Below, piece after piece: positions 1,301 through 17,465 of a DNA stretch of 17,546 nt; position 1 is the first letter of the stretch, and each line of letters opens with the position of its first letter. A model generated the notes under the pieces. It made no database searches. It was given only the letters and a program-made list of their open reading frames with translations, and was not told where the DNA came from. The stretch lies in NCBI GenBank assembly GCA_043228905.1, contig JBHGNT010000690.1, positions 1 through 17,546 on the forward strand, in the 5' to 3' direction. The position numbers and the translations under genes are program-made. The stretch is from Azolla caroliniana. Its lineage: Eukaryota; Plantae; Polypodiophyta.

Positions 1301-2701
1301 GTCAGTATCTGTCTCTCTCTGTGTGTGTATAATATGATGCCTTTCTCCTGATCTTCTCCTGCTTGTCTGTTTCTCCCTGAATCACCTGCCAGAGATCAAG
1401 CTCTCTGTTTTGATATACCTCACTCACTATAGTAGGTGAAGAAACTGTTCTTGGTTTCTTCGACGAAGCCTTTTAATGCTGTTCTTTTCTTTTTTTGTTT
1501 TCCCTTTCGTTGATTCTGGATATGGCATGGCTTCCATTCTTTTCCTTTTCATTCTTCCTCTTCTGAGCCATGCCGTATACAGGCCTCTGTTTTAAGGCTT
1601 TCTCCTTCTTCCTCGGGAGACCTGTCTGCCTTATACATATTAGTGTTTCTTTCGGCTTCTTTTCCAAGAATCTATCTTCTGAAGCCTTTTCAGCTGTATA
1701 TTTAGGGCTTCTTCAGAGCTCTCGTTCGTGCTCTGAGGTTTGTCTGCTATAGATTTAGGCTTCTTTTGAGTTCCTCTTATTTCCTAGGCCTACCTGCCAC
1801 ATATTTAGGATTTTCTTTAGAATCTGATTGTCTTAGGTGTAGGAAAAGGTCCATTAATGTCCTATGTCCTACGCTCAGGTTTATCCTCTTGATATTCAGT
1901 GTTTTGACTTCTTGTAGAGTAGTTATAGAGTTGTCAGCTAACATGACTGACATGTCATGATCTCCTCAGGGTCTACATTTTTGTTTTCCTGAAAGGCATA
2001 AACTGTCTTATCGCATCTAATTTTTCCTGATCTAGTTTTTCTATTTATGTTTCTGCAAATAAAATCTTCATGCTTTGAATCAGGCAATTTTGAGTTCTTC
2101 CGTGTGTTTCACATAAAGTTTGTGAAAATAAATTTTTGTGTTTTGCATCGAGTAAATTTTCACTTTTGTTTTCTGTAGAATATTTTGTAACATCGTGTAC
2201 TATGTCAAGTATTTTTCTCACCCTTTTAAGAATTCCACTGGTTCATGTTGATGTTCTCGTGAAGGATTAGATGCATTCATCCTGAAGGTGTTTTTAGTAG
2301 CTCTTATTACTTGTGGAAACTCTAAAGATTTAGAAATGTGTAAAGCTGTGTCGCACTTTCATTGGGGTTTCTGTTGCTGCATAGGTTTCACTGCGAAATC
2401 TTGCATCATAGAGAATTCTGGTTCGTCCCGACGTTTTTAAAGAAGGGTCTAAATTGTAATACACTTTTGGTTGGGGTTTTCCTGTATTGCACAGTACTCA
2501 CCAGTAAAATCTGCATGCTACATTCTCTTACTCATGATATATTACTTGAAGTTTATGCTTTTTGCATGTCCTTAGTGGTAACCTAAAGTTTGCAAGTCTC
2601 TCTCTATATATCTATATTTAACAAATATTATGGATCACACTTCAGTATTTGTTCAACTGGTAGTGGTTACTGACATTAGAGTGCTTTTAAATTGTAAGCA
2701 G
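1301..2701 (+). other. Probable 5'UTR intron of PDX1 (1401 bp)
   Basis: Donor CAG|GTCAGT at 1300/1301, T-rich body, branch-like CTGAC at 2670-2674, and acceptor AAGCAG ending at 2701, 2 nt before the ATG. Confidence 0.7.
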
Positions 2702-2703
2702 TG

Positions 2704-3633
2704 ATGGCAAGCGATGGAGTAGTTACGGTCTATGGCAATGGTGCGATTTCGGACCCAAAGAAATCGTCATACGCAGTGAAGGTTGGATTGGCTCAGATGC
2801 TGAGGGGTGGAGTGATCATGGACGTTGTAAATGTTGAACAAGCACGTATTGCAGAAGAAGCAGGAGCTGCAGCTGTTATGGCTCTTGAGCGTGTTCCGGC
2901 AGACATAAGGGCTGAAGGTGGAGTCGCACGCATGAGTGACCCTGGCTTAATCAAGGAAATCAAGAATGCTGTAACTATCCCTGTTATGGCTAAAGCTAGG
3001 ATAGGTCACTTTGTTGAAGCCCAGGTTCTCGAAGCCATCGGTGTCGATTATATTGATGAGAGTGAAGTTCTTACTCCCGCCGACGACGTGAATCATACCA
3101 ACAAGCATAACTTCAGGATTCCTTTCGTCTGTGGATGTAGGAACTTAGGCGAAGCTCTACGAAGGATCGCTGAAGGTGCAGCGATGATTCGAACCAAAGG
3201 AGAGGCTGGAACTGGTAACGTGGTCGAAGCGGTGAGGCATGTGAGGTCAGTGCTAGGAGAAATTAGGAAGCTTCAGAGCTTAGATGACGATGAGGTGTTC
3301 ACGTTTGCGAAGGAAATCGCGGCTCCTTATGAACTTGTGAGGCAAACCAAGCAACTTGGCCGCCTCCCGGTAGTGAATTTTGCTGCTGGGGGTGTTGCCA
3401 CCCCTGCGGATGCTGCCATGATGATGCAACTTGGTTGTGATGGCGTCTTTGTCGGATCAGGAATCTTTAAGAGTGGGAATCCTTCTCAACGTGCAAGAGC
3501 CATTGTCTCAGCTGTCACTCACTTTAATGATCCTAGTGTTATAGCAGATGTTAGCTGTGGGTTGGGTGAAGCTATGGTCGGCATTAACCTCAGCGATAAG
3601 AAAGTAGAGCGCTTTGCAGCCAGATCGGAGTAG
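2704..3633 (+). CDS. PDX1: Pyridoxal 5'-phosphate synthase subunit PDX1 (SNZ/PdxS family), 309 aa, intronless CDS
   Basis: Translation has the family motifs [51 protein letters not shown] and [18 protein letters not shown]. Both catalytic lysines (MAK, RTK) and the MDV aspartate are present, so it is a catalytic type rather than a PDX1.2-like pseudoenzyme. The likely start is ATG 2704, because the GTG at 2701 overlaps the splice acceptor. Confidence 0.97.
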
Positions 3634-4678: not shown

Positions 4679-5002
4679 CCTTTGAGGTAGGGTGATAATG
4701 GCTTGGCCTATTGTCAAAATAACTATTGTTACTACATTTCTTTATTGGGGATAGAATTGATAGCTACAAAATGGATTGTGGGAGTGCCTTTGAGGTAGGG
4801 TGATAATGGCATGGCCTATTGTCAAAATAACTATTGTTACTACATTTCTTTATTGGGGATAGAATTGATAGCTACAAAATGGATTGTGGGAGTGCCTTTG
4901 AGGTAGGGTGATAATGGCATGGCCTATTGTCAAAATAACTATTGTTACTACATTTCTTTATTGGGGGTAGAATTGATAGCTTCAAAATGGATTGTGTGAG
5001 TT
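4679..5002. repeat. Tandem repeat, 3 x 108 bp
   Basis: Units start CCTTTGAGGTAGGGTGATAATGGC at 4679, 4787 and 4895. Copies 1 and 2 differ at 1 site; copy 3 differs at about 4 sites. Confidence 0.95.
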
Positions 5003-7575: not shown

Positions 7576-8504
7576 CCGCCGCCTGTCTTTCTTCCTTCCC
7601 TTCTATACATTCCATTCTGTGAAACTCCTTTATATATTCTGCCTCCCTTTCTCCTTCTCCTTCTCCGACTCTCTGTCTCCCTTTCTGTGTATGTATATCG
7701 AGCAATTCATCTGCAGAAAGGTAACCGTCTTGCAAACATGTGCAGAAGAGAAACTATCTTAGCAAACATCTGTAGAGAGTAAGTCTTCTTTGCAAGAATC
7801 TGCAGAGAATAACTCTTCGTTTGCAACCATCCGCAGGAAAGAAACAAGCACCTGAAGAAAAGAAAGCATCTCTGCAAAACCGTGGAGGAAAATTCAACCA
7901 CCTTGGGCGAAGCTCTGCTCTGATAGTACCCATCTTGCGAAACTGTGGCGAAAATAATTATGTCGCGAATCTTTGTTCCTTTACGCAGAGAAAGAAATAA
8001 CCTTGCAGAATTGTGCAGAAACCCGAAGCAGATCTTAGCCAACTTGAAACAGGTGTATACATTGTAGCAATACTGGTTTCCCATGGAAGTTTTCATGTGT
8101 ATACATGCGTAACGAGAATTTCCGATTTCTTCGGCACACTATATCAAGCCTTTTGGAAAAGCCCAGTTTCAGTTGAGAATCAGAGAGGAATTTCGAGAAA
8201 AAGATTTACAAAGTTAAAGAAGAAGAAGAATACAAGAAGAAGAATCCAAGCAGGAGAACCTTAGAAGAAGAAGAAGAATCTAAGACATCATACAAGTGTC
8301 CCTGGGAAGTATCCTTAAGAAGAAGAGGAGGAGTAGGACATACTAAAATGAGTGATTTTGCAAAGACAATCAGTCATAGGCACAGCAGCTTAACCAAGAA
8401 GAAGGTATCACACATCATAGAAGTTGTGATTTCTTCATTAGACTTTTGACGAGAACAGTTTGTCTTCCCTTTTGCTTGGGGGCTATTTCCCTTCTATTAT
8501 CAAT

Positions 8505-10988
8505 ATGGAGGGACAAAATCAAAGTATTTCACTCCTTGAGTCTATATGGCATAATGCCAACCAGATAGTTGGAGCAAAAGGTTTTCCTTCTAGCCATAAG
8601 AGAGTCTGTGTTGACCTGATTCGCAGAGTTAAGCTCATTCTGCCATTTCTTGAAGAGGTTCGAGAATCTCAAGATTCCTCGTTGCAAGAAGCTTCCATTT
8701 CTGCTTTCTATGCCCTCGAAAAAGCTCTATGCTCTGCCCTTCGTTTACTTCAGTTTTGCAAAGACGGCAGCAAATTATATCTGGTTTGGCTCTTTCCAAC
8801 TTTTGAGTTTAATTTTCATCCATATGTGCTAAATTCTCAAACATTTTAATTTGCTTCGTATGCCCACATAAAGTTTGATTTCAATGTCAGTTGATTCGCA
8901 TACACTTGCTTTGTTCCATTTGTACACATGGAATGACTTCCATTATCTGATGTTGATACATATCACAAATATAGAGCATCTGCTCAAAAAGCAAGTTTTG
9001 GTGTTTTTGTTTGGTCTCTTTTCCTTAGGTTTTGGAGAGGGGAGTTATTGCAAACAGACTCTATGAAGTGACTGATGCAATGGATAAAGCTTTAGACCAA
9101 ATGCCAACCAAATGTTTAGAACTCTCATTAGAGGTTCAGGAGCAGGTGAATTTCTTATGCTTGCAACTTTAGTCTGTAAACAGCCTGTAATTTCGACGGA
9201 AATGGGATTCTTAGCCTATGATTTATGCAAAATGTTACAGATTGAGCTTGTCCATGCCCAACTGAAACGAGCAAAAGGAAGATCAGACACACACGACATG
9301 GAACTATTTATGGATGCAATGCTAGCCATTTCAGAGAAGGATGACACAAAAGCTCTCTGTCAAGTTGCTGAAAAGCTTCAGCTTAAAAGTCCTTCACAAC
9401 TAAAAACTGAAGCTCATGCTGTACAAAACTTGATTAAGGAGAGGAATGGGGTTGTTGATGAAAGCCTTAAACAGATTTTGGGTTTACTGAGGAGACTTAC
9501 TCTTTTAATTAATGAAGCTGATACTGAATTAGATAGTTTGGAACTTGAGAAGCTTTCATTCTATGATGTAGCTGATGGTGAAAATCCACAATCACCTGTT
9601 GTACCTAATGATTTCCGGTGCCCAATATCCTTGGAGCTCATGAAAGATCCAGTCATAGTTGCGACGGGGCAGGTTAGCTACTTATGATTATGATTATGAT
9701 TTTCCTGATATCTATAGAAAAGATTATTCTTGTAATATGTTTAACAGTGTTTTACATGCTTATGCCAGAATTTATATGTCAAAATGTGATTTCTGGGCTT
9801 GTGCAAGAGACTTGATATGATTTTCTGTACTTAGAGCCTTTGTTTTGAAATGTGTGTTTAAATGTGCTACTGCTGCTGCTTGCATAAGACTTTTTTGTAT
9901 GTCTTCTGGTGCAGACTTATGAGAGATCGAGTATCCAAAAATGGTTAGAAGGACATAAGACTTGTCCTAAGACTGGGGAGGTTCTCCCACATACAGTGTT
10001 AACTCCTAATTTTGCACTGAGAAGTCTCATCATTGAGTGGTGTGAAGCTAATGGAATTGAAGTCCCAAAAAGAGCATGTCTGAATCGAGGTAATAAGACT
10101 TCTTTGGTGCTATCTTCCAAAGATGGCATCTCTTTGGATATGCTTATTGAGCATTTATGCAGTGGTCAATTAGAATTACAGAGGGTTGCAGCTGAAGAGA
10201 TAAGATCACTAGCAAAACAAAATGCTGATAATAGAGTGTGTATAGCAGAAGCGGGTGCTATTCCACTTCTAGTGAATCTCCTCTCAACTGAAGATTCTCG
10301 CACTCAGGAACATGCTGTTACTGCGTTGCTTAACTTGTCAATTTATGAAGGAAATAAAAGAGCTATAGTGAGAGCTGGGGCTATCCCACACATTGTTGGA
10401 GTTTTAAAGTATGGAAACATGGAAGCAAGAGAAAATGCTGCAGCTACTCTCTTCAGTCTATCTGTGATGGATGAAAACAAGATGATGATTGGAGCGGCTG
10501 GAGCTATTCCTCCACTGGTAGACCTATTGAGAGATGGGAACCCTCAAGGAAGGAAAGATGCTGCAACTGCTCTGTTTAACCTAGCAATTTATCAAGGGAA
10601 CAAGCGAAGAGCTATTAGAGCTGGAATAATCGATCCTTTAATGAGGCTAATGGTTGATCTCACTGCCGGAATGAGAGATGAAGCATTAGCTATTCTTGCT
10701 ATCCTCGTCACCCACCAAGAAGGAAGAGTTGCTATTGGCAATGCTTCAGCAGTGCCAGTATTAGTGGATATAATAAAGAATGGCTCATCACGCAATAAGG
10801 AGAATGCTGCCTCAGTTCTTTTAGCATTGAGTTCTAGTGATATAAGTCATTTAATGGAAGCTCAAGAGCTTGGAGTAGAAGGCCCTCTCATTGAGCTTGT
10901 TCATTCTGGAACTGCGAGGGCAAGACGGAAGGCATCTAGTCTTCTAGAACGGTTAAACAAGCAAAATGAAGATTTAAGAAGTTCATGA
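8505..10988 (+). CDS. Plant U-box/ARM-repeat E3 ubiquitin ligase (PUB13/PUB14/SPL11-like), join(8505..8783,9029..9145,9241..9672,9915..10988), 633 aa
   Basis: Three phase-0 GT-AG introns join exons of 279, 117, 432 and 1074 nt in frame. It has an N-terminal UND-like region ([14 protein letters not shown]...GSKLYL|VLER...EVQEQ|IELVHAQL), a U-box ([23 protein letters not shown]|[10 protein letters not shown]...TCPKT...[11 protein letters not shown]) and ARM repeats ([52 protein letters not shown]). The exact orthologue cannot be assigned. Confidence 0.93.
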
Positions 10989-13441
10989 TGAATTAAAATT
11001 GAGTTAGTTGATTTCAGTTAGCAATTGTAGGAGGAGAAAAGTTTAGTGACATGATAATGGTTTGTGAAAACCATGATGAAAATATAGGCGATATCAGTTT
11101 GTAAAGATGGAACCAGGAAAGTTTAGGGCCAAGATAATGGTTTGAGGAAGCCATGATGATAAGATGTGGAATCAGAACAAATCAGTGGACAGGCAGGGAC
11201 GATTTTAGCAGCCATGATTAGTAGAAGATTGATGAAAGCATCACACGTTTGGTCTTTGAGAAGTGTTGTGATGACGTTTTAAGAAGACCATGATGAAAAT
11301 ACAGTTAATTTTAGTTAGTTCCCGTGGAATAAGATGGGAAAACGTCTAGGAAAAATTTTAGTAGCAAGATGATGTTTGAAGAAGCCCATGATGAAAATAT
11401 GGTTCATCTCAGATCGTGCAGGCTGAAATCAGAGCTAGTAAATGCTGGAACTAGTACGTGAAATTGCGCCACCCGTTTGCCTCACAAAGTTATTGTAACA
11501 TTTATATAAAGTTCGTTACATTGTGGGTCCGACTTCACCATAAGCTTCCTAATTCATGCACTAGAGATATTCAAAAGAGAGATTGTTTATTGCAGAGTAA
11601 CGATACAACACAGCTGAAATCCATTGCTGGTCTACTAATTTGTATTCGGTCTATGTTCATGAACATCTTGCAGGTTGAATAAAATGTTCTAAGGTAGACA
11701 AAGTCCTCCTTAGTATATTCATAATAAATCCACGAGAAAGAGAAATCAATTGCATATATGCTTCCATTCAATTGTTTATTTCCAAGTTGTTTTTCATTAT
11801 TAATAGCACTTCCTTATAATGGATTACAGCATTTTTCTCATCACTTTTTAGCTCATTGTTTTTTTCTTCCTTTTAATGGGTTTAAACAATGAGGAACAAC
11901 TTGTGAATGTCGAGTTGTTACTCTTTGACTTCTCTCAATCTCTCACGAGACCTATCACTACCATTTTCTTTTCTTTTTTAAGGAATAGAGGAATCTATAA
12001 CAGGTTATTACTAAAAAAGAGAAACAAGGAGAGAGATTTTATGTTTTGCTAACCATAGCCTTTAAATGCTCGAGAGTAAAACTAAACTGCACAACAGATT
12101 CAGTTAACGATTAAACTCCAGTGGTGAATTGTCTTGCTATCTATATTTATCCAATCTATTATGACATTCAACTATCCTGCATACTAATAATTGACGTTTC
12201 ATTTTGTACAAGTACTGCTATTTCTTAATGGTGATTATCTTATTCTGAAATTTGTATTATTTTTAGGATAGAAGCTTTCCTTATTTAGGACTTGGGAGAG
12301 TTTTATTATTGATTGCCTATGGTCTTTTAGGTTCCTCTTTAGATTTTACAAGAATCCAGGACATCCACATATAGTTGCTTGTAGTCATTACTTTTTAACA
12401 TGTATATCTTTAATCATGACACATGTCATGGTGAGATTCCTCTTTAGATTCTACAAGGATATCTAGCAATGCACACAATTGTTTCTTTGATAGACATTGC
12501 AATATATACATATTTGGTCATGATGTCTTTGAGTATTAATTTTAACAGTTTAACGTCTCCTCGGGCCCTCCTTGAAAACTAGGCATTGCCTTCAAATGAA
12601 CACAGATAAAGCCATGGGCTTCTCATTAATGATCAATTTAAGAAATAAAAAGAAAACGACCATCAGGGAGCCTTGGTTGGATTCTTTTGTTGGATCATAT
12701 TCTTTACGATTGATCATGGGCTTCTTCTTGCATCATTTCATATCAGTGCCTGGATTCTGCTGCTTGCTGTTCACCAGGTATATCAATAAAAGCACTACTC
12801 ATCAGCAGAGTATTAGGAGTATCATGAATCTGATTATTCTAATGGGTCATGTATTGATTACTCATAGTTCAGGGGTGCAATGGAATCTCCTCTAAAGGTG
12901 GTATCGTCTCTTCACTGGCACTTTCGTCATAAATCCAGCACTTCTGTTCTGCTGGGAAATAATCTATCATTTCCGGGCTCCGCTCCAATTTTCACTTCAT
13001 GTCCTAAATTGATCAATTCTTTTCCCTTTCTCATGCGTGAAAACGAGCGAAAATGAATGAACAAATAATATTTCTAATGCAGAAGCAACGGAAGCTCGTA
13101 GAGAAACCTTAAATTATTGGCTCACTTAAAGAAGTACTGCAGCCCGTTTAGTCCTAATTCTTCTCATAACCAATGTTTTCACTTTGATTTCGTTCAATCT
13201 CCTGTTATTTGGGTACATTCACGTGGGAATGGAAGAGATTCCGGCAGATCATGTTCACCATGAAGTCATATGAAATCGGATCTCGATTCTCCCTAGAATC
13301 TTCCTATTAGTTGCCATCAAAGACTTTTTGCTTGTTTTCCGTTCTTTATCAATGGGTTATTTCAAAGGGTGGCCTAAGGTCACCCCCATTAAATGAGAGT
13401 CCCGCCTCTCTTCGTTTAAGCGGGAAAAACGGGAAAGGGAG

Positions 13442-13449
13442 AGGCCAAT
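13442..13449 (+). repeat. 8 bp target-site duplication, left copy (AGGCCAAT)
   Basis: Identical to 17458-17465 and abuts the TIR; 8 bp is the typical hAT TSD length. Confidence 0.95.
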
Positions 13450-13470
13450 CAGGGCCTGAATTTGACGGGT
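13450..13470 (+). repeat. Left TIR of the hAT element (CAGGGCCTGAATTTGACGGGT)
   Basis: The reverse complement of 17437-17457 is CAGGGCAGGAATTTGACGGGT, differing at 2 positions. Confidence 0.95.
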
Positions 13471-13895
13471 TAGTCTTAAAGTTTTTTGACGGGCATTTTT
13501 TAAAGATGTATGTCATATGACGTAAGAGTGCAAAAATTAACATGTCATTTGACATACAAATTTCTTATAATGAAAAGCTCTATATGATGCTTCATTATTA
13601 TACATTTTATTACTATAGAAGGTACACAAATAGACACAACTACCTCGCAAAGATAATGAAATACAGAAAATAAATATCGTGTTAATGTTTTTTTTTTACC
13701 AAAAAAGTGTTAATGTTTTTTAAGCCAAAGTACAAACTATATATGTATCCATAATCATAATTCATTCTTGCAAAGTGGATACAATAAGCTTCAAACAAAT
13801 AATCATACAAATCGAATACTTAATCATCATATATTTCTTAAAGCCCAAAAAACACAAAAAAATGTTTATCATACCGGGACTCCTCATACTTATTA

Positions 13896-16097
13896 CTAAG
13901 CATTGTTCAATGATACTATCCTTCTCTCTTTCTCTTCAAACCAAAGGTTAAATATATCCCTCCAACAAATGTTTGATGTCTCTTGAGCATTCAAGGATAT
14001 AAACATCAAAGCATCTAAAGTTTCCAAAGATAAACCATTTCTAATATCATTTTTTATGATATTTTGACGTGAAAAGCCTCGTTCACATGCAGCTGTACTA
14101 ATAGGAATAGTCATACATAGTTGCCACAATTGCATAATACCCGGAAATAATTGCCACCAAGATTGTGCATTGCAACAAATATCCCATGCATCATGCATTC
14201 CTCTTCCTTTAGCAATTCTCACAAGCATACCAACAAAATCTTCTCGTTCATTGAAGCATCTTTTCATGTCAACAATTTGCCTATCAATGTTAAACTTCCC
14301 AATAAGTTTGTGCATCCATTCCTTTGTCTTTTTCTCTCTTTCATTTTCCTCAATGGGATATGAAGATGGATTAAACAACTTGATAGCATTGAAAAATGTA
14401 ACATCCGGGAAACGATTGTTTAAGGCATCAATAACATGTTGGACAAAAGTTTTTCCAATTCTAATGCATTCATCCAAACTACCATTTTCCGCATTACCAT
14501 TAAACATATTCAAGTTAGAATCATTATCTTCATTCTCACTATCAAGACCACTCATTATTCTTGATCGATTTGCTACCTCCTTTGGGTTTGGAATCGGTAT
14601 AAACTTCAATGGATGTGAATGAGTAACACTATCACATCGAATATATATGAGTATGCCATCTTTCACATTCGATAAAAAGCTTGCAAGAAACATAGACCCG
14701 GTGCCAAATGTTTCACACGATAAATATCTTCTTCGAAGTTTCTCATGGATCAAATCCAAGTGAACACCAAGCATAGTTACATCCATTAATTCCCTTTGGA
14801 ATTGCTCATTTAATTTATTTAATTCCACAAGAATATCTGCCAATAGGTGCAACATAAATTGCACTTGGAATATAGTAGCATACTCGTACCATTTTTTCTC
14901 ATGTTTTTCCCATTGTTCTAAAATTGCGGGCATAAGTGTAACTAGTCTCTCCATTACTTGGCCTCGAGATAACCATCTTATGGAGTGAATTTTAAGCACC
15001 TTCAAATCACCCTTACCATGTCGTTTCATTATCTCTTTTAGCTCCTTGTGTCTATTAGTTGACTTTCCCAACCAAGAGTATACTTTATTTGCAAATACAT
15101 CAAGGAAGCTAAACACATGGGCATGAGACATTATATATGCATCTTTTATGGCAAGTGCTTCACGATGTGCAATGCAATGTACTCCCAAAATATTAGGCAT
15201 CATGGATTGAAACTTAGAAATTGCACCATTGTTCTTCCCTATCATAGATGATGCCCCATCACTTGCAAAAGCCACAAGTTTTTTTAAATCTAAATTGCTC
15301 TCCAAAATGAATTCATTGATAGACTTGTAGATACCTTCAGCTTTCACATTTTCCACCGGAAGAAGTCGCGCAAATTTACAATGTGGCTCCCCTTTGCCAC
15401 CTTCACTTAAGTACAATACATAGATAATGAGGTGTTTTTCCAATGTACGATCAATGCTTTCATCAATCAAGATGGAGAAAAATGGACTTCCACGAATTTC
15501 ATCATACAAGAGTTTCCTTGTGTGGTTCTTAATGGCCATTAAGAATTCTCTTGCAGATTTAGCATTAGCATAAGCACCATATTCTTTTGAGGCAGGGGCG
15601 TTTGGAGTACCAAGTTCTCTTTGTAACATACATTGTTTTACATATTTCTCTAATGGAATATCATTGCAAGCATGAAAATGAACCAACTTCATGCATAAAA
15701 GTATCCTCTCATATTCTAAATGCATGATTTCTGAAATTTTGTCATCCATTGGGCCTTTCACATTTGCATTTTCCTTTTGTCTTTTTGCATTATACATGGC
15801 ACTTGCTATCACATGATCGGATGACTTTGCATGTTCATTCAATGAAGACATTTGCATGATTTGAGATCCACCATCCGCAAATACATTGTTCTTTCTTGCA
15901 TCTTCACACCACATGCATTTGATTATATCATCACCTAATAGGGACTTTGTCACATATGCCCATGGGTGAAGCAAAGTCCATTGGTTTCTCCACTTTCTTT
16001 TTTGTTTGTTATAAGAAGATCTCGACTCATTTGTGTTTGTAACCACCTCGTGCTCATTATTTGGAGCATCATTAACATGTGTTGCCTTGCAAAACAT
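13896..16097 (-). CDS. hAT transposase (ZNF862/C17orf113-like group), at least 733 aa; probably 748 aa as complement(join(13896..16140,16307..16308))
   Basis: N-terminal W-W-CxxC...H...H zinc finger (CMWC...LNEHAKSSDH); catalytic DDE contexts FFSILIDESID, FASDGASS and STAACERGFSRQN; CxxH motif (HCIAH); RWLS motif; C-terminal hAT dimerisation region. No stops or frameshifts. Confidence 0.93.
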   Translation of the reverse strand: MFCKATHVNDAPNNEHEVVTNTNESRSSYNKQKRKWRNQWTLLHPWAYVTKSLLGDDIIKCMWCEDARKNNVFADGGSQIMQMSSLNEHAKSSDHVIASAMYNAKRQKENANVKGPMDDKISEIMHLEYERILLCMKLVHFHACNDIPLEKYVKQCMLQRELGTPNAPASKEYGAYANAKSAREFLMAIKNHTRKLLYDEIRGSPFFSILIDESIDRTLEKHLIIYVLYLSEGGKGEPHCKFARLLPVENVKAEGIYKSINEFILESNLDLKKLVAFASDGASSMIGKNNGAISKFQSMMPNILGVHCIAHREALAIKDAYIMSHAHVFSFLDVFANKVYSWLGKSTNRHKELKEIMKRHGKGDLKVLKIHSIRWLSRGQVMERLVTLMPAILEQWEKHEKKWYEYATIFQVQFMLHLLADILVELNKLNEQFQRELMDVTMLGVHLDLIHEKLRRRYLSCETFGTGSMFLASFLSNVKDGILIYIRCDSVTHSHPLKFIPIPNPKEVANRSRIMSGLDSENEDNDSNLNMFNGNAENGSLDECIRIGKTFVQHVIDALNNRFPDVTFFNAIKLFNPSSYPIEENEREKKTKEWMHKLIGKFNIDRQIVDMKRCFNEREDFVGMLVRIAKGRGMHDAWDICCNAQSWWQLFPGIMQLWQLCMTIPISTAACERGFSRQNIIKNDIRNGLSLETLDALMFISLNAQETSNICWRDIFNLWFEEKERRIVSLNNA

Positions 16098-16224
16098 AGT
16101 CTTAATAGAATGTTGTTGTGCTTGGTTCTTTGTTTTCCCCCTGAAATTATTTAAATAATAGACATCTAAAAATGTACTAAAAGTATTTCATTTCACTATA
16201 ATAGAGACATTGAAGTTATTGTTT

Positions 16225-16975
16225 AGGTATTAAGGTAATACAAAAACAATATTGTATAATAACTTGTTAAATGAACATAATATGATAGATATTCATGGTA
16301 ACTTACATTTTTAAAATGTAGTTAAAAAATGTTGAAGGTTGAAGGCTGTTTTTGTTCTATTCCCACTGCACAAAAAGGCTACATAGAATCAATAATTTTT
16401 AATTGGAACAATAGCTTGCTACCTAATAGTAAGTACTCACCTTTTCCTATACTAATAAGTTATTATTAACCCTAATTTTTTAATAAAGCATAGTAAAACG
16501 TAATAAGTATGTATAAAACAATAGGTTAGTAAAACATTTAGTTTAAAAAAACTTAAAATCAAACCTTATTGAAATGAAATACTTTTAGTTTATTTTTAGA
16601 GGTATTAAGGTAATACAAAAACAATATAATAACTTGCTAAATGAACATAATATGATAGATGATCATGGTAACTTACATTTTTAAACTGTAGTTAAAAAAT
16701 GTTGAAGGTTGAAGGATGTTTTTCTTTGTTCTATTCTTGCTGCACAAAAGGCTACATAAAATCAATCATTTTTAAGTTGAAAAATAACTTGTTACCTAGC
16801 AGTAAGTAGTAAGTAGTAAGTACTCACCTTTTTCCTATACTAAAAAGTTATTACTAACCCTAATTTTTTAATAAAGCACAGTAATAAGTATTAAGTATTA
16901 AGTAATAAGTAATAAGTATGTATAAAAAAGTAGGTTAGTAAAACATTTACTTTAAGAAAACTTAAAATCAAACCT
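16225..16975. repeat. Diverged tandem duplication inside the transposon leader (about 16225-16566 and 16600-16975, period about 375 bp)
   Basis: Both copies start AGGTATTAAGGTAATACAAAAACAATA and end CTTAAAATCAAACCT. They are collinear throughout, with substitutions and small slippage expansions (AGTAAGT, TAAGTAA) in copy 2. Confidence 0.92.
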
Positions 16976-17100
16976 AGAGTGACTAGTCTACACTCTAGTA
17001 TTTTTTAGAGTATTTAATAAAGCACCAAGGTTATTGTTTAAAATTTAAATTGATTTGGGGATTCATCATTACAATTTATATGATATTATTTTAAGCGTGT

Positions 17101-17105
17101 TATAA

Positions 17106-17136
<31 letters not shown>

Positions 17137-17140
17137 TATA
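17101..17140. repeat. (TA)n tract inside the transposon
   Basis: Read directly from the sequence. Confidence 0.8.
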
Positions 17141-17436
17141 TTAAAATTTAGTATATTACACACTTCATACTATATAGTCAAATTGAATCTTGATACTACA
17201 TACATGATAGTATGATAGTACATATATTTAAATTTTATATGACAATATGTGGTATATATATATAATATATATGAATAATGACATAGAAAATAAAATTTTA
17301 GCATGTCATTTGACATGTATAATTTTAAGGGGCCTTTCACATGAAAAGGAAAATTTTATACTTTATATGTCACTTGACGGACATTTTTAGTAGGTGTATG
17401 TTTTTGACGGGCAAAATGGCCTTTGACGGGCATGAC

Positions 17437-17457
17437 ACCCGTCAAATTCCTGCCCTG
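17437..17457 (-). repeat. Right TIR of the hAT element
   Basis: ACCCGTCAAATTCCTGCCCTG is an inverted match to 13450-13470. Confidence 0.95.
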
Positions 17458-17465
17458 AGGCCAAT
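17458..17465 (+). repeat. 8 bp target-site duplication, right copy (AGGCCAAT)
   Basis: Identical to 13442-13449. Confidence 0.95.

What the first reader, a model, noticed from the sequence alone, without database searches (positions are those of the whole stretch)
16098..16308. Transposase start codon appears to be assembled by splicing (AT|G)
Seen in sequence: on the minus strand the transposase frame stays open upstream of the annotated Met, with no ATG before the stop near 16190. There is an acceptor TTTCAG| at 16141 and a strong donor AAAAAT|GTAAGT at 16306. Removing this 166 bp intron joins AT (16308-16307) to G (16140), giving AAAA-ATG-GGG in frame and in a good plant initiation context: MGKTKNQAQQHSIKT-MFCK..., 748 aa. 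Inference: full-length transposase would depend on this splice, while unspliced RNA would start at 16097 and lack 15 residues. That could act as an on/off control, loosely analogous to splicing control of the Drosophila P element.
Basis: partly seen in the sequence, partly recalled or inferred. Interest (0 to 1): 0.8.

Follow-up and report, generated by a model that had tools for sequence, protein, structure and literature searches.

The report
Fern hAT transposase with split start
An intact cut-and-paste jumping gene, likely from a fern, has no start codon in front of the conserved front end of its enzyme and likely builds that start codon by splicing AT to G, a rare but known gene layout for which no spliced RNA and no on/off control were shown.

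Summary
The sequence facts hold. A 4,008-bp hAT element (TIRs, 8-bp target duplication) carries an unbroken transposase frame. Donor 16306 and acceptor 16141 join AT to G in frame, giving 748 aa; 8 of 3000 shuffles do this. The 15 extra residues look like real protein. Close relatives (90% identical) start at the matching place with an ordinary genomic ATG and have Val where the window has Met-16097. A Q-x-x-I-x-x-x-F motif, like a PCNA-binding PIP box, sits there in 11 of 21 long homologues. Relatives usually show an acceptor-like site just before their ATG, so a leader intron seems to be a family trait. This subfamily swapped its 5' region and likely moved the splice into the codon. A duplicated upstream donor (16676) gives the same protein. 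No RNA junction was found; the RNA-like contigs laid barely cover this 5' type. Two deleted copies have an in-frame Met about 20 codons further upstream, which is the main rival. Nothing shows regulation. Unspliced RNA would meet six short upstream frames, so it would likely make little protein rather than the 733-aa form. The P-element analogy is weak. Split start about 0.62; regulated switch about 0.1.

The parts
13442..13449 (.). Left target-site duplication AGGCCAAT (8 bp)
13450..13470 (-). 3' terminal inverted repeat, 21 nt, 2 mismatches to the other end
13896..16140 (-). Main transposase exon (predicted); no stop in 747 codons; zf-C17orf113 and hAT dimerisation domains; D227, D295, E687, CxxH 323-326, W390 in 748-aa numbering (catalytic roles recalled)
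16098..16140 (-). G plus 14 codons of N-terminal extension: basic residues and the first part of the motif QHSIKTMF (residues 10-17, PIP-box-like)
16095..16097 (-). Internal ATG (Met16); Val in the full-length relatives, Met in deleted copies of the window's 5' type
16141..16306 (-). Predicted 166-nt GT-AG intron splitting the start codon in phase 2
   Evidence: no RNA junction seen
16307..16365 (-). Predicted 59-nt leader exon ending in AT
   Evidence: prediction only
16366..16440 (-). Predicted 75-nt upstream leader intron (AAG|GTGAGT ... TTTGTGCAG|)
   Evidence: prediction only
16625..16975 (-). Tandem copy of the leader unit (86-94% alike in ungapped blocks) with a second AT|GTAAGT donor at 16676, donor 16827 and acceptor 16740; 16676 to 16141 gives the same 748-aa protein
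16162..16198 (.). Arm of a 37-nt inverted repeat (partner 16567-16603) covering the three competing AGs at 16196, 16177 and 16166
17437..17457 (-). 5' terminal inverted repeat
17458..17465 (.). Right target-site duplication AGGCCAAT

Best explanation
This is an intact hAT DNA transposon, likely from a fern, whose transposase likely starts at an ATG made by routine splicing of a leader intron (AT from a short leader exon, G from the main exon), which would give a 748-residue enzyme with the family's conserved front-end motif. Shown: element ends, unbroken frame, splice-like sites, in-frame join, conservation of the front-end peptide in relatives that use a plain ATG, and a 5' region unrelated to theirs. 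Inferred: the family has an intron ending just before the ATG; this subfamily replaced its 5' region and first codons, and the splice now falls inside the start codon. The splice is likely constitutive. Retaining the intron would switch translation off through short upstream frames, as retention of any leader intron would. The front-end motif is predicted to dock on PCNA (untested).
For: Only AT-ending donors with acceptor 16141 give an in-frame ATG (2 of 16 pairs); 8 of 3000 shuffles. The product (748 aa, Met 9 residues before Q) matches the closest relative (747 aa, Met 10 before Q, 90% identical, Val at the Met-16097 column). The motif Q-x-x-[ILMV]-x-x-x-[FY] is in the first 45 aa of 11 of 21 long homologues against 3 of 252 downstream windows and 1.4% of shuffles. 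An acceptor-like YAG lies within 20 nt before the ATG in 12 of 16 loci, 5 of 7 sequence groups, background 0.07-0.32. In run X1 (probably DNA; 59 contigs laid, none 99% alike) none of the 40 listed substitutions falls in 16293-16312 or 16137-16209, 10 of 12 listed indels fall in the predicted intron and none in 16098-16140, and the six listed substitutions in the extension make no stop (codons read by hand). The window frame has 63 sites where one transition makes a stop and none is hit.
Against: No junction in any of the 7 runs laid. The acceptor is moderate and fails the 9-of-14 threshold I applied to relatives; the AG at 16166 scores higher and would give only a 4-codon frame. P0225 and P0309, 2 of 7 proteins of the window's 5' type, read through 16190 as Trp to a Met about 20 codons upstream, and G-to-A decay would turn that into the window's sequence. 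hides differences near contig ends and 7 substitution rows and 2 indel rows were not shown; more contigs cover the intron than the extension; X1's copies seem mostly internally deleted, so their likeness may reflect youth, not selection. One of the seven (P0205) is frameshifted in the extension and reads K, not Q, over the acceptor. Copies with a plain ATG exist in related material and could supply all transposase.
Confidence: 0.62

Rival explanations
1. The window's 5' type makes no full-length transposase. Its real start was a plain in-frame ATG (about 16199, as in P0225, or the relatives' start lost when the 5' region was replaced), and the copy is moved by elements that keep a normal ATG. 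The AT|G fit is chance.
For: P0225 and P0309 start MLKW at about 16199. Full-length relatives with a plain ATG and a core 92-100% identical exist. The same internal deletion occurs with both 5' types (L002 and P0225), so mosaics or assembly chimeras occur.
Against: It needs two disabling hits in four codons with none at 63 stop-prone sites downstream (best-case likelihood 1.3e-4). The inverted-repeat arm copied from this spot also reads TGA. P0225 and P0309 are deleted, frameshifted copies, and their Met comes from an automatic gene caller. A split start arises in 8 of 3000 shuffles.
Confidence: 0.18
2. The transposase starts at 16097 (733 aa), reached by skipping the 59-nt exon (donor 16440 or 16827 to acceptor 16141), by a downstream promoter or by leaky scanning, and works without the front-end motif.
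For: Donor 16440 has the better AG|GTGAGT consensus; this path leaves 16097 as the first long-frame ATG. Met-16097 has A at -3 and is kept in 6 of 7 proteins of this 5' type.
Against: It cuts the family motif in half, and full-length relatives have Val there. The extension stays open in X1's listed variants.
Confidence: 0.1
3. The split start is real and is a regulated switch: tissue or stress changes the choice between the productive splice, intron retention, the 16166 acceptor and exon skipping.
For: The alternative paths have sharply different outputs: 748 aa, 733 aa or only tiny frames. A 37-nt inverted repeat is predicted to pair over the three competing AGs (z -2.66, 1 of 100 shuffles as good). 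Splice control is known for the P element (PMC9762592, passages).
Against: No expression data at all. The hairpin's outer arm is present in one low-depth X1 contig while other X1 contigs leave the window sequence at 16566. Relatives with a plain ATG would be just as sensitive to leader-intron retention.
Confidence: 0.1

Closest known systems
hAT superfamily DNA transposons (Ac, Buster and Tip groups; PMC3942097, passages read)
   Same: 2.5-5 kb, short TIRs, 8-bp target duplication, hAT dimerisation domain; nearest named proteins are from Adiantum nelumboides and Ceratopteris richardii (52-53% identity).
   Different: The start codon is predicted to be split by an intron. Subgroup not tested.
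Introns that disrupt the start codon (phase 1 or 2 in codon 1; Nielsen and Wernersson 2006, PMC1626468, section 6 and passages read)
   Same: A phase-2 intron inside ATG; the paper calls these relatively rare, especially in plants.
   Different: Here in a mobile element, with a duplicated donor, and with close relatives that keep a plain ATG, so the change can be traced. Not shown by RNA.
Drosophila P element IVS3 (PMC9762592, passages read)
   Same: Transposase output depends on removing one intron.
   Different: IVS3 is the third intron and its retention is controlled by host splicing factors and piRNAs. Here the intron precedes the coding sequence and no control is shown.
Restless hAT of Tolypocladium inflatum (title seen only in a reference list; paper not held) and Kat1 frameshift control (PMC4316626, passage)
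   Same: hAT transposases whose expression involves alternative splicing or recoding.
   Different: Neither text seen mentions a split start codon; details of Restless splicing were not read.
PCNA-binding (PIP) motifs of transposases: archaeal IS1634, Drosophila Pogo, LINE-1 ORF2 (PMC4549789, passages read)
   Same: Consensus Q-x-x-I-x-x-F-F; the window has QHSIKTMF and homologues have e.g. QSSIKRFF and QPTLVQFF.
   Different: Met in place of the first Phe; that paper names no hAT; binding untested.

Membership tests
hAT superfamily | 8-bp target-site duplication | tested here: met
   AGGCCAAT on both sides
hAT superfamily | Short TIRs (10-25 bp), length 2.5-5 kb | tested here: met
   21 nt with 2 mismatches; 4,008 bp (criteria from PMC3942097)
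hAT superfamily | hAT C-terminal dimerisation domain | tested here: met
   PF05699 27.4 bits, cut-off 21.4; weak match to Hermes, E 0.0015
hAT superfamily | DDE triad with CxxH and W motifs | tested here: met
   Motifs present and conserved in alignment; their catalytic role is recalled, not tested
hAT Tip / Ac / Buster subgroup | Position in a transposase tree with named members | not tested
   No reference members were in hand
Autonomous active hAT | Transposase expressed and mobilising the element | not testable with these tools
   Intact frame and ends only
Genes with an intron inside the start codon | Canonical GT-AG intron whose removal yields an in-frame ATG | tested here: met
Genes with an intron inside the start codon | Spliced transcript with that junction | tested here: inconclusive
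   No junction in 7 runs laid; the six RNA-like runs have no cover at 16180-16596
Genes with an intron inside the start codon | Sites conserved among copies | tested here: inconclusive
   No listed change at donor or acceptor in X1 (with hidden rows); absent from full-length relatives with another 5' region
P-element-type splice control | Tissue- or host-factor-dependent intron retention | not testable with these tools
   No raw-read RNA runs listed
P-element-type splice control | Controlled intron lies inside the coding sequence, downstream of a normal start | tested here: not met
   The intron precedes all coding sequence but two letters
PIP-box proteins | Q-x-x-I-x-x-F-F consensus | tested here: inconclusive
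   Q, I and last F present, Met at position 7; motif enriched at homologue N-termini, 11 of 21
PIP-box proteins | Binding to PCNA | not testable with these tools
   No result available; open

The most novel reading that the evidence does not exclude
A hAT subfamily rebuilt its 5' end so that one splice both creates the start codon and adds a PCNA-docking peptide. Regulated splice choice would toggle between an active, replication-coupled 748-aa transposase, a 733-aa form lacking the peptide that could poison the hAT oligomer, and silent RNA.
Probability: 0.1. Interest if true: 0.75.

Novelty: new variant of a known kind. Interest (0 to 1): 0.4.

Why it matters
If the splice is real, it is a traceable case of an intron ending up inside a start codon, with sister elements that keep the plain ATG for comparison. 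It also warns annotators that hAT copies which seem to lack a start codon (as said of Hatvine-4 in PMC2528002, passage) may be intact. The element is intact with perfect ends, so it is a candidate active fern transposon. The conserved PIP-box-like front end suggests a testable link between plant hAT transposition and the replication clamp. A regulated switch would matter more but has no support yet.

Tried and rejected
No whole genome is held, so other copies in this genome could not be aligned. No RNA holder is on record; 10 runs were listed, all contigs with RNA guessed. X2-X7 have no cover at 16180-16596; one 172-nt X3 contig of the window's 5' type stops at 16127. This is no evidence on splicing either way. 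Pattern scans for the donor in genome contigs gave 7 bacterial hits, taken as chance and not examined; the acceptor pattern gave 0 in viral contigs. None of the 80 metagenome loci holds the window's 5' type. The 96-nt in-frame gap in P0001, L003 and X3 looked like a second intron but has no GT-AG ends and occurs in a contig that keeps its upstream intron-like DNA, so I treat it as a deletion. All-against-all comparison of the loci gave 16 gap rows and none is a GT-AG leader intron. The complex prediction with a PCNA gave no verdict. The left flank was not identified by Pfam or PDB searches. Rfam gave 0 matches. Earlier notes by place and by sequence gave nothing. Literature: ten searches, read as listings, showed no title or abstract start on a hAT with a split start codon or a hAT PIP box; the library lacks most subscription papers and I read no supplements, where counts of split start codons may stand.

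Full report
Setting. The window holds plant-type genes (a PDX1/SOR-SNZ gene at 2698-3633 and a U-box/ARM gene at about 8442-10988) and a minus-strand hAT element at 13450-17457 (4,008 bp). The element has 21-nt TIRs with 2 mismatches and a perfect 8-bp duplication AGGCCAAT. Its frame has the zf-C17orf113 and hAT dimerisation domains and no stop in 747 codons. The nearest named homologues are fern proteins at 52-53% identity, so a fern source is likely; no genome is held.

Observation. All coordinates check out: stop at 16190-16188, first in-frame ATG at 16097, donor at 16306, acceptor at 16141, intron 166 nt, product 748 aa. Only 2 of 16 donor-acceptor pairs give an in-frame ATG, and both use an AT-ending donor with acceptor 16141. 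Each unit looks like exon / short intron / 59-63-nt exon ending in AT / donor. A split in-frame start appeared in 8 of 3000 shuffles with a GTRAG donor and 46 of 3000 with GTRA; a plain in-frame ATG appeared in 252 of 3000. Thresholds were set after seeing the site. The acceptor is moderate (8 of 14 pyrimidines, no YTRAY) and the AG at 16166 scores higher.

Is the extension protein? Likely yes. The closest full-length relative (P0085, 747 aa, 90% identical) begins MSCPKKQ, carries QPSIKSVF and has Val at the column of Met-16097. A motif Q-x-x-[ILMV]-x-x-x-[FY] lies in the first 45 residues of 11 of 21 homologues (those of 690 aa or more among the best 52 of the 83 hits), against 3 of 252 downstream windows and 1.4% of shuffles. 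The window's version, QHSIKTMF, spans residues 10-17, so a start at 16097 would cut it. It resembles the PCNA-binding consensus Q-x-x-I-x-x-F-F quoted in PMC4549789 (passages). Binding is untested.

Is the split conserved? Not across the family. Four close loci (L001, L002, L003, L005) have a plain ATG 10 nt after a CAG, and their 5' region is unrelated to the window's beyond about 225 nt from the TIR. Identity to the window rises from about 80% in the first 150 coding bases to 92-100% in the core. L001's two flanks do not form a duplication, so these contigs are likely collapsed copies. All 16 loci with a readable N-terminus have a plain ATG (two stray rows from 3' regions were dropped). Twelve of the 16, in 5 of 7 sequence groups, have an acceptor-like YAG within 20 nt before it, against backgrounds of 0.07-0.32. 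I infer a family-wide leader intron ending just before the start. The window's 5' type is a separate module in which the first codons differ and the acceptor falls inside the codon.

Other copies of the window's 5' type. Run X1 (probably DNA) gave 59 contigs over 15950-16620, none 99% alike. None of 40 listed substitutions lies in 16293-16312 or 16137-16209; 10 of 12 listed indels lie in the predicted intron and none in the extension; six listed changes in the extension make no stop. Limits: 7 and 2 rows were not shown, changes near contig ends are hidden, the intron has more contigs on it, and these copies seem mostly to carry a 441-nt internal deletion, so they need not be under selection. 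Seven database proteins are of this type: four start at the Met-16097 equivalent, one is frameshifted with K in place of Q over the acceptor, and two (P0225, P0309) read through 16190 as Trp to a Met about 20 codons upstream. That is the strongest point against the split start. Against it in turn: the window would need two disabling hits in four codons with none at 63 stop-prone sites (likelihood at most 1.3e-4), and the inverted-repeat arm at 16567-16603, which looks copied from this spot, also reads TGA.

RNA. Ten runs were listed, none on record as RNA; seven were laid. The RNA-like ones carry mainly the relatives' type and do not cover the donor. No junction was seen, which says nothing either way.

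Mechanism. Best reading (0.62): a transcript from the 5' end removes one or two leader introns, the last splice joins AT to G in an AAA-ATG-G context, and a 748-aa transposase results. Modelled alternatives: acceptors 16166 or 16177 give a 4-codon frame first; skipping the small exon leaves 16097 as the first long-frame start (733 aa). Retention leaves six upstream ATGs with frames of 1-9 codons, the first being ATG-TAA at the donor itself. So unspliced RNA would likely be silent rather than make the short form. Nothing shows that these choices are regulated. A predicted long-range stem covers the three competing AGs and leaves 16141 outside it, but its outer arm is seen in only one low-depth X1 contig and looks like a by-product of the duplication.

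Comparison. It is a hAT by every feature tested; subgroup and activity are untested. Introns inside the start codon are known and called relatively rare, especially in plants (PMC1626468, section 6). P-element control concerns the third intron and host factors (PMC9762592, passages), so the analogy is loose. Splicing of the hAT Restless is known to me here only from a cited title. Ten searches, read as listings, showed no hAT with a split start. Earlier notes of this scan record similar split starts in other genomes; they are unchecked leads and show only that the layout recurs.

Verdict. Observation confirmed; split start likely but unproven; on/off switch unsupported. New variant of a known kind, interest 0.4.

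Noticed in passing
window 16094-16115 (minus strand) and homologues: A PIP-box-like motif Q-x-x-[ILMV]-x-x-x-[FY] behind a basic stretch sits at the N-terminus of 11 of 21 long homologues from ferns, moss, yew and unnamed sources. It may link this hAT clade to PCNA.
   Followed up: partly
window 13442-13449 / 17458-17465: Run X7 has a contig joining 13443 to 17460 (4,016 skipped = element plus one duplication), and X1, X2 and X7 show a similar left flank at 17460: a homologous site without the element. The flank has high depth and may be multi-copy or organelle-derived; it was not identified.
   Followed up: partly
window 15484-15926; L002; P0225: The same roughly 441-nt internal deletion occurs with both 5' types, pointing to recombination between subfamilies or to chimeric assembly.
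   Followed up: partly
window 15503-15602; L003; P0001, P0090, P0096: An in-frame 96-nt net deletion variant (715 aa) just before the first catalytic Asp recurs in several contigs and in run X3; a possible inhibitory derivative.
   Followed up: partly
window 16165-16163 (minus strand): An out-of-frame ATG-TCT lies 11 nt after the AG at 16177, much as the relatives' ATG-TCC lies 10 nt after their CAG; it may be a relic of the old start.
   Followed up: no
window 4679-5002: Three tandem copies of a 108-bp unit, 95-99% alike.
   Followed up: no
window 11005-11417: Four diverged copies of a 66-80-nt unit containing CCATGATGA, downstream of the U-box gene; no Rfam match at gathering score. Could be a degenerate snoRNA-like or simple repeat cluster.
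   Followed up: partly
window 2698-3633 and 8442-10988: An intronless PDX1 (SOR/SNZ) gene and a multi-exon plant U-box/ARM gene.
   Followed up: no
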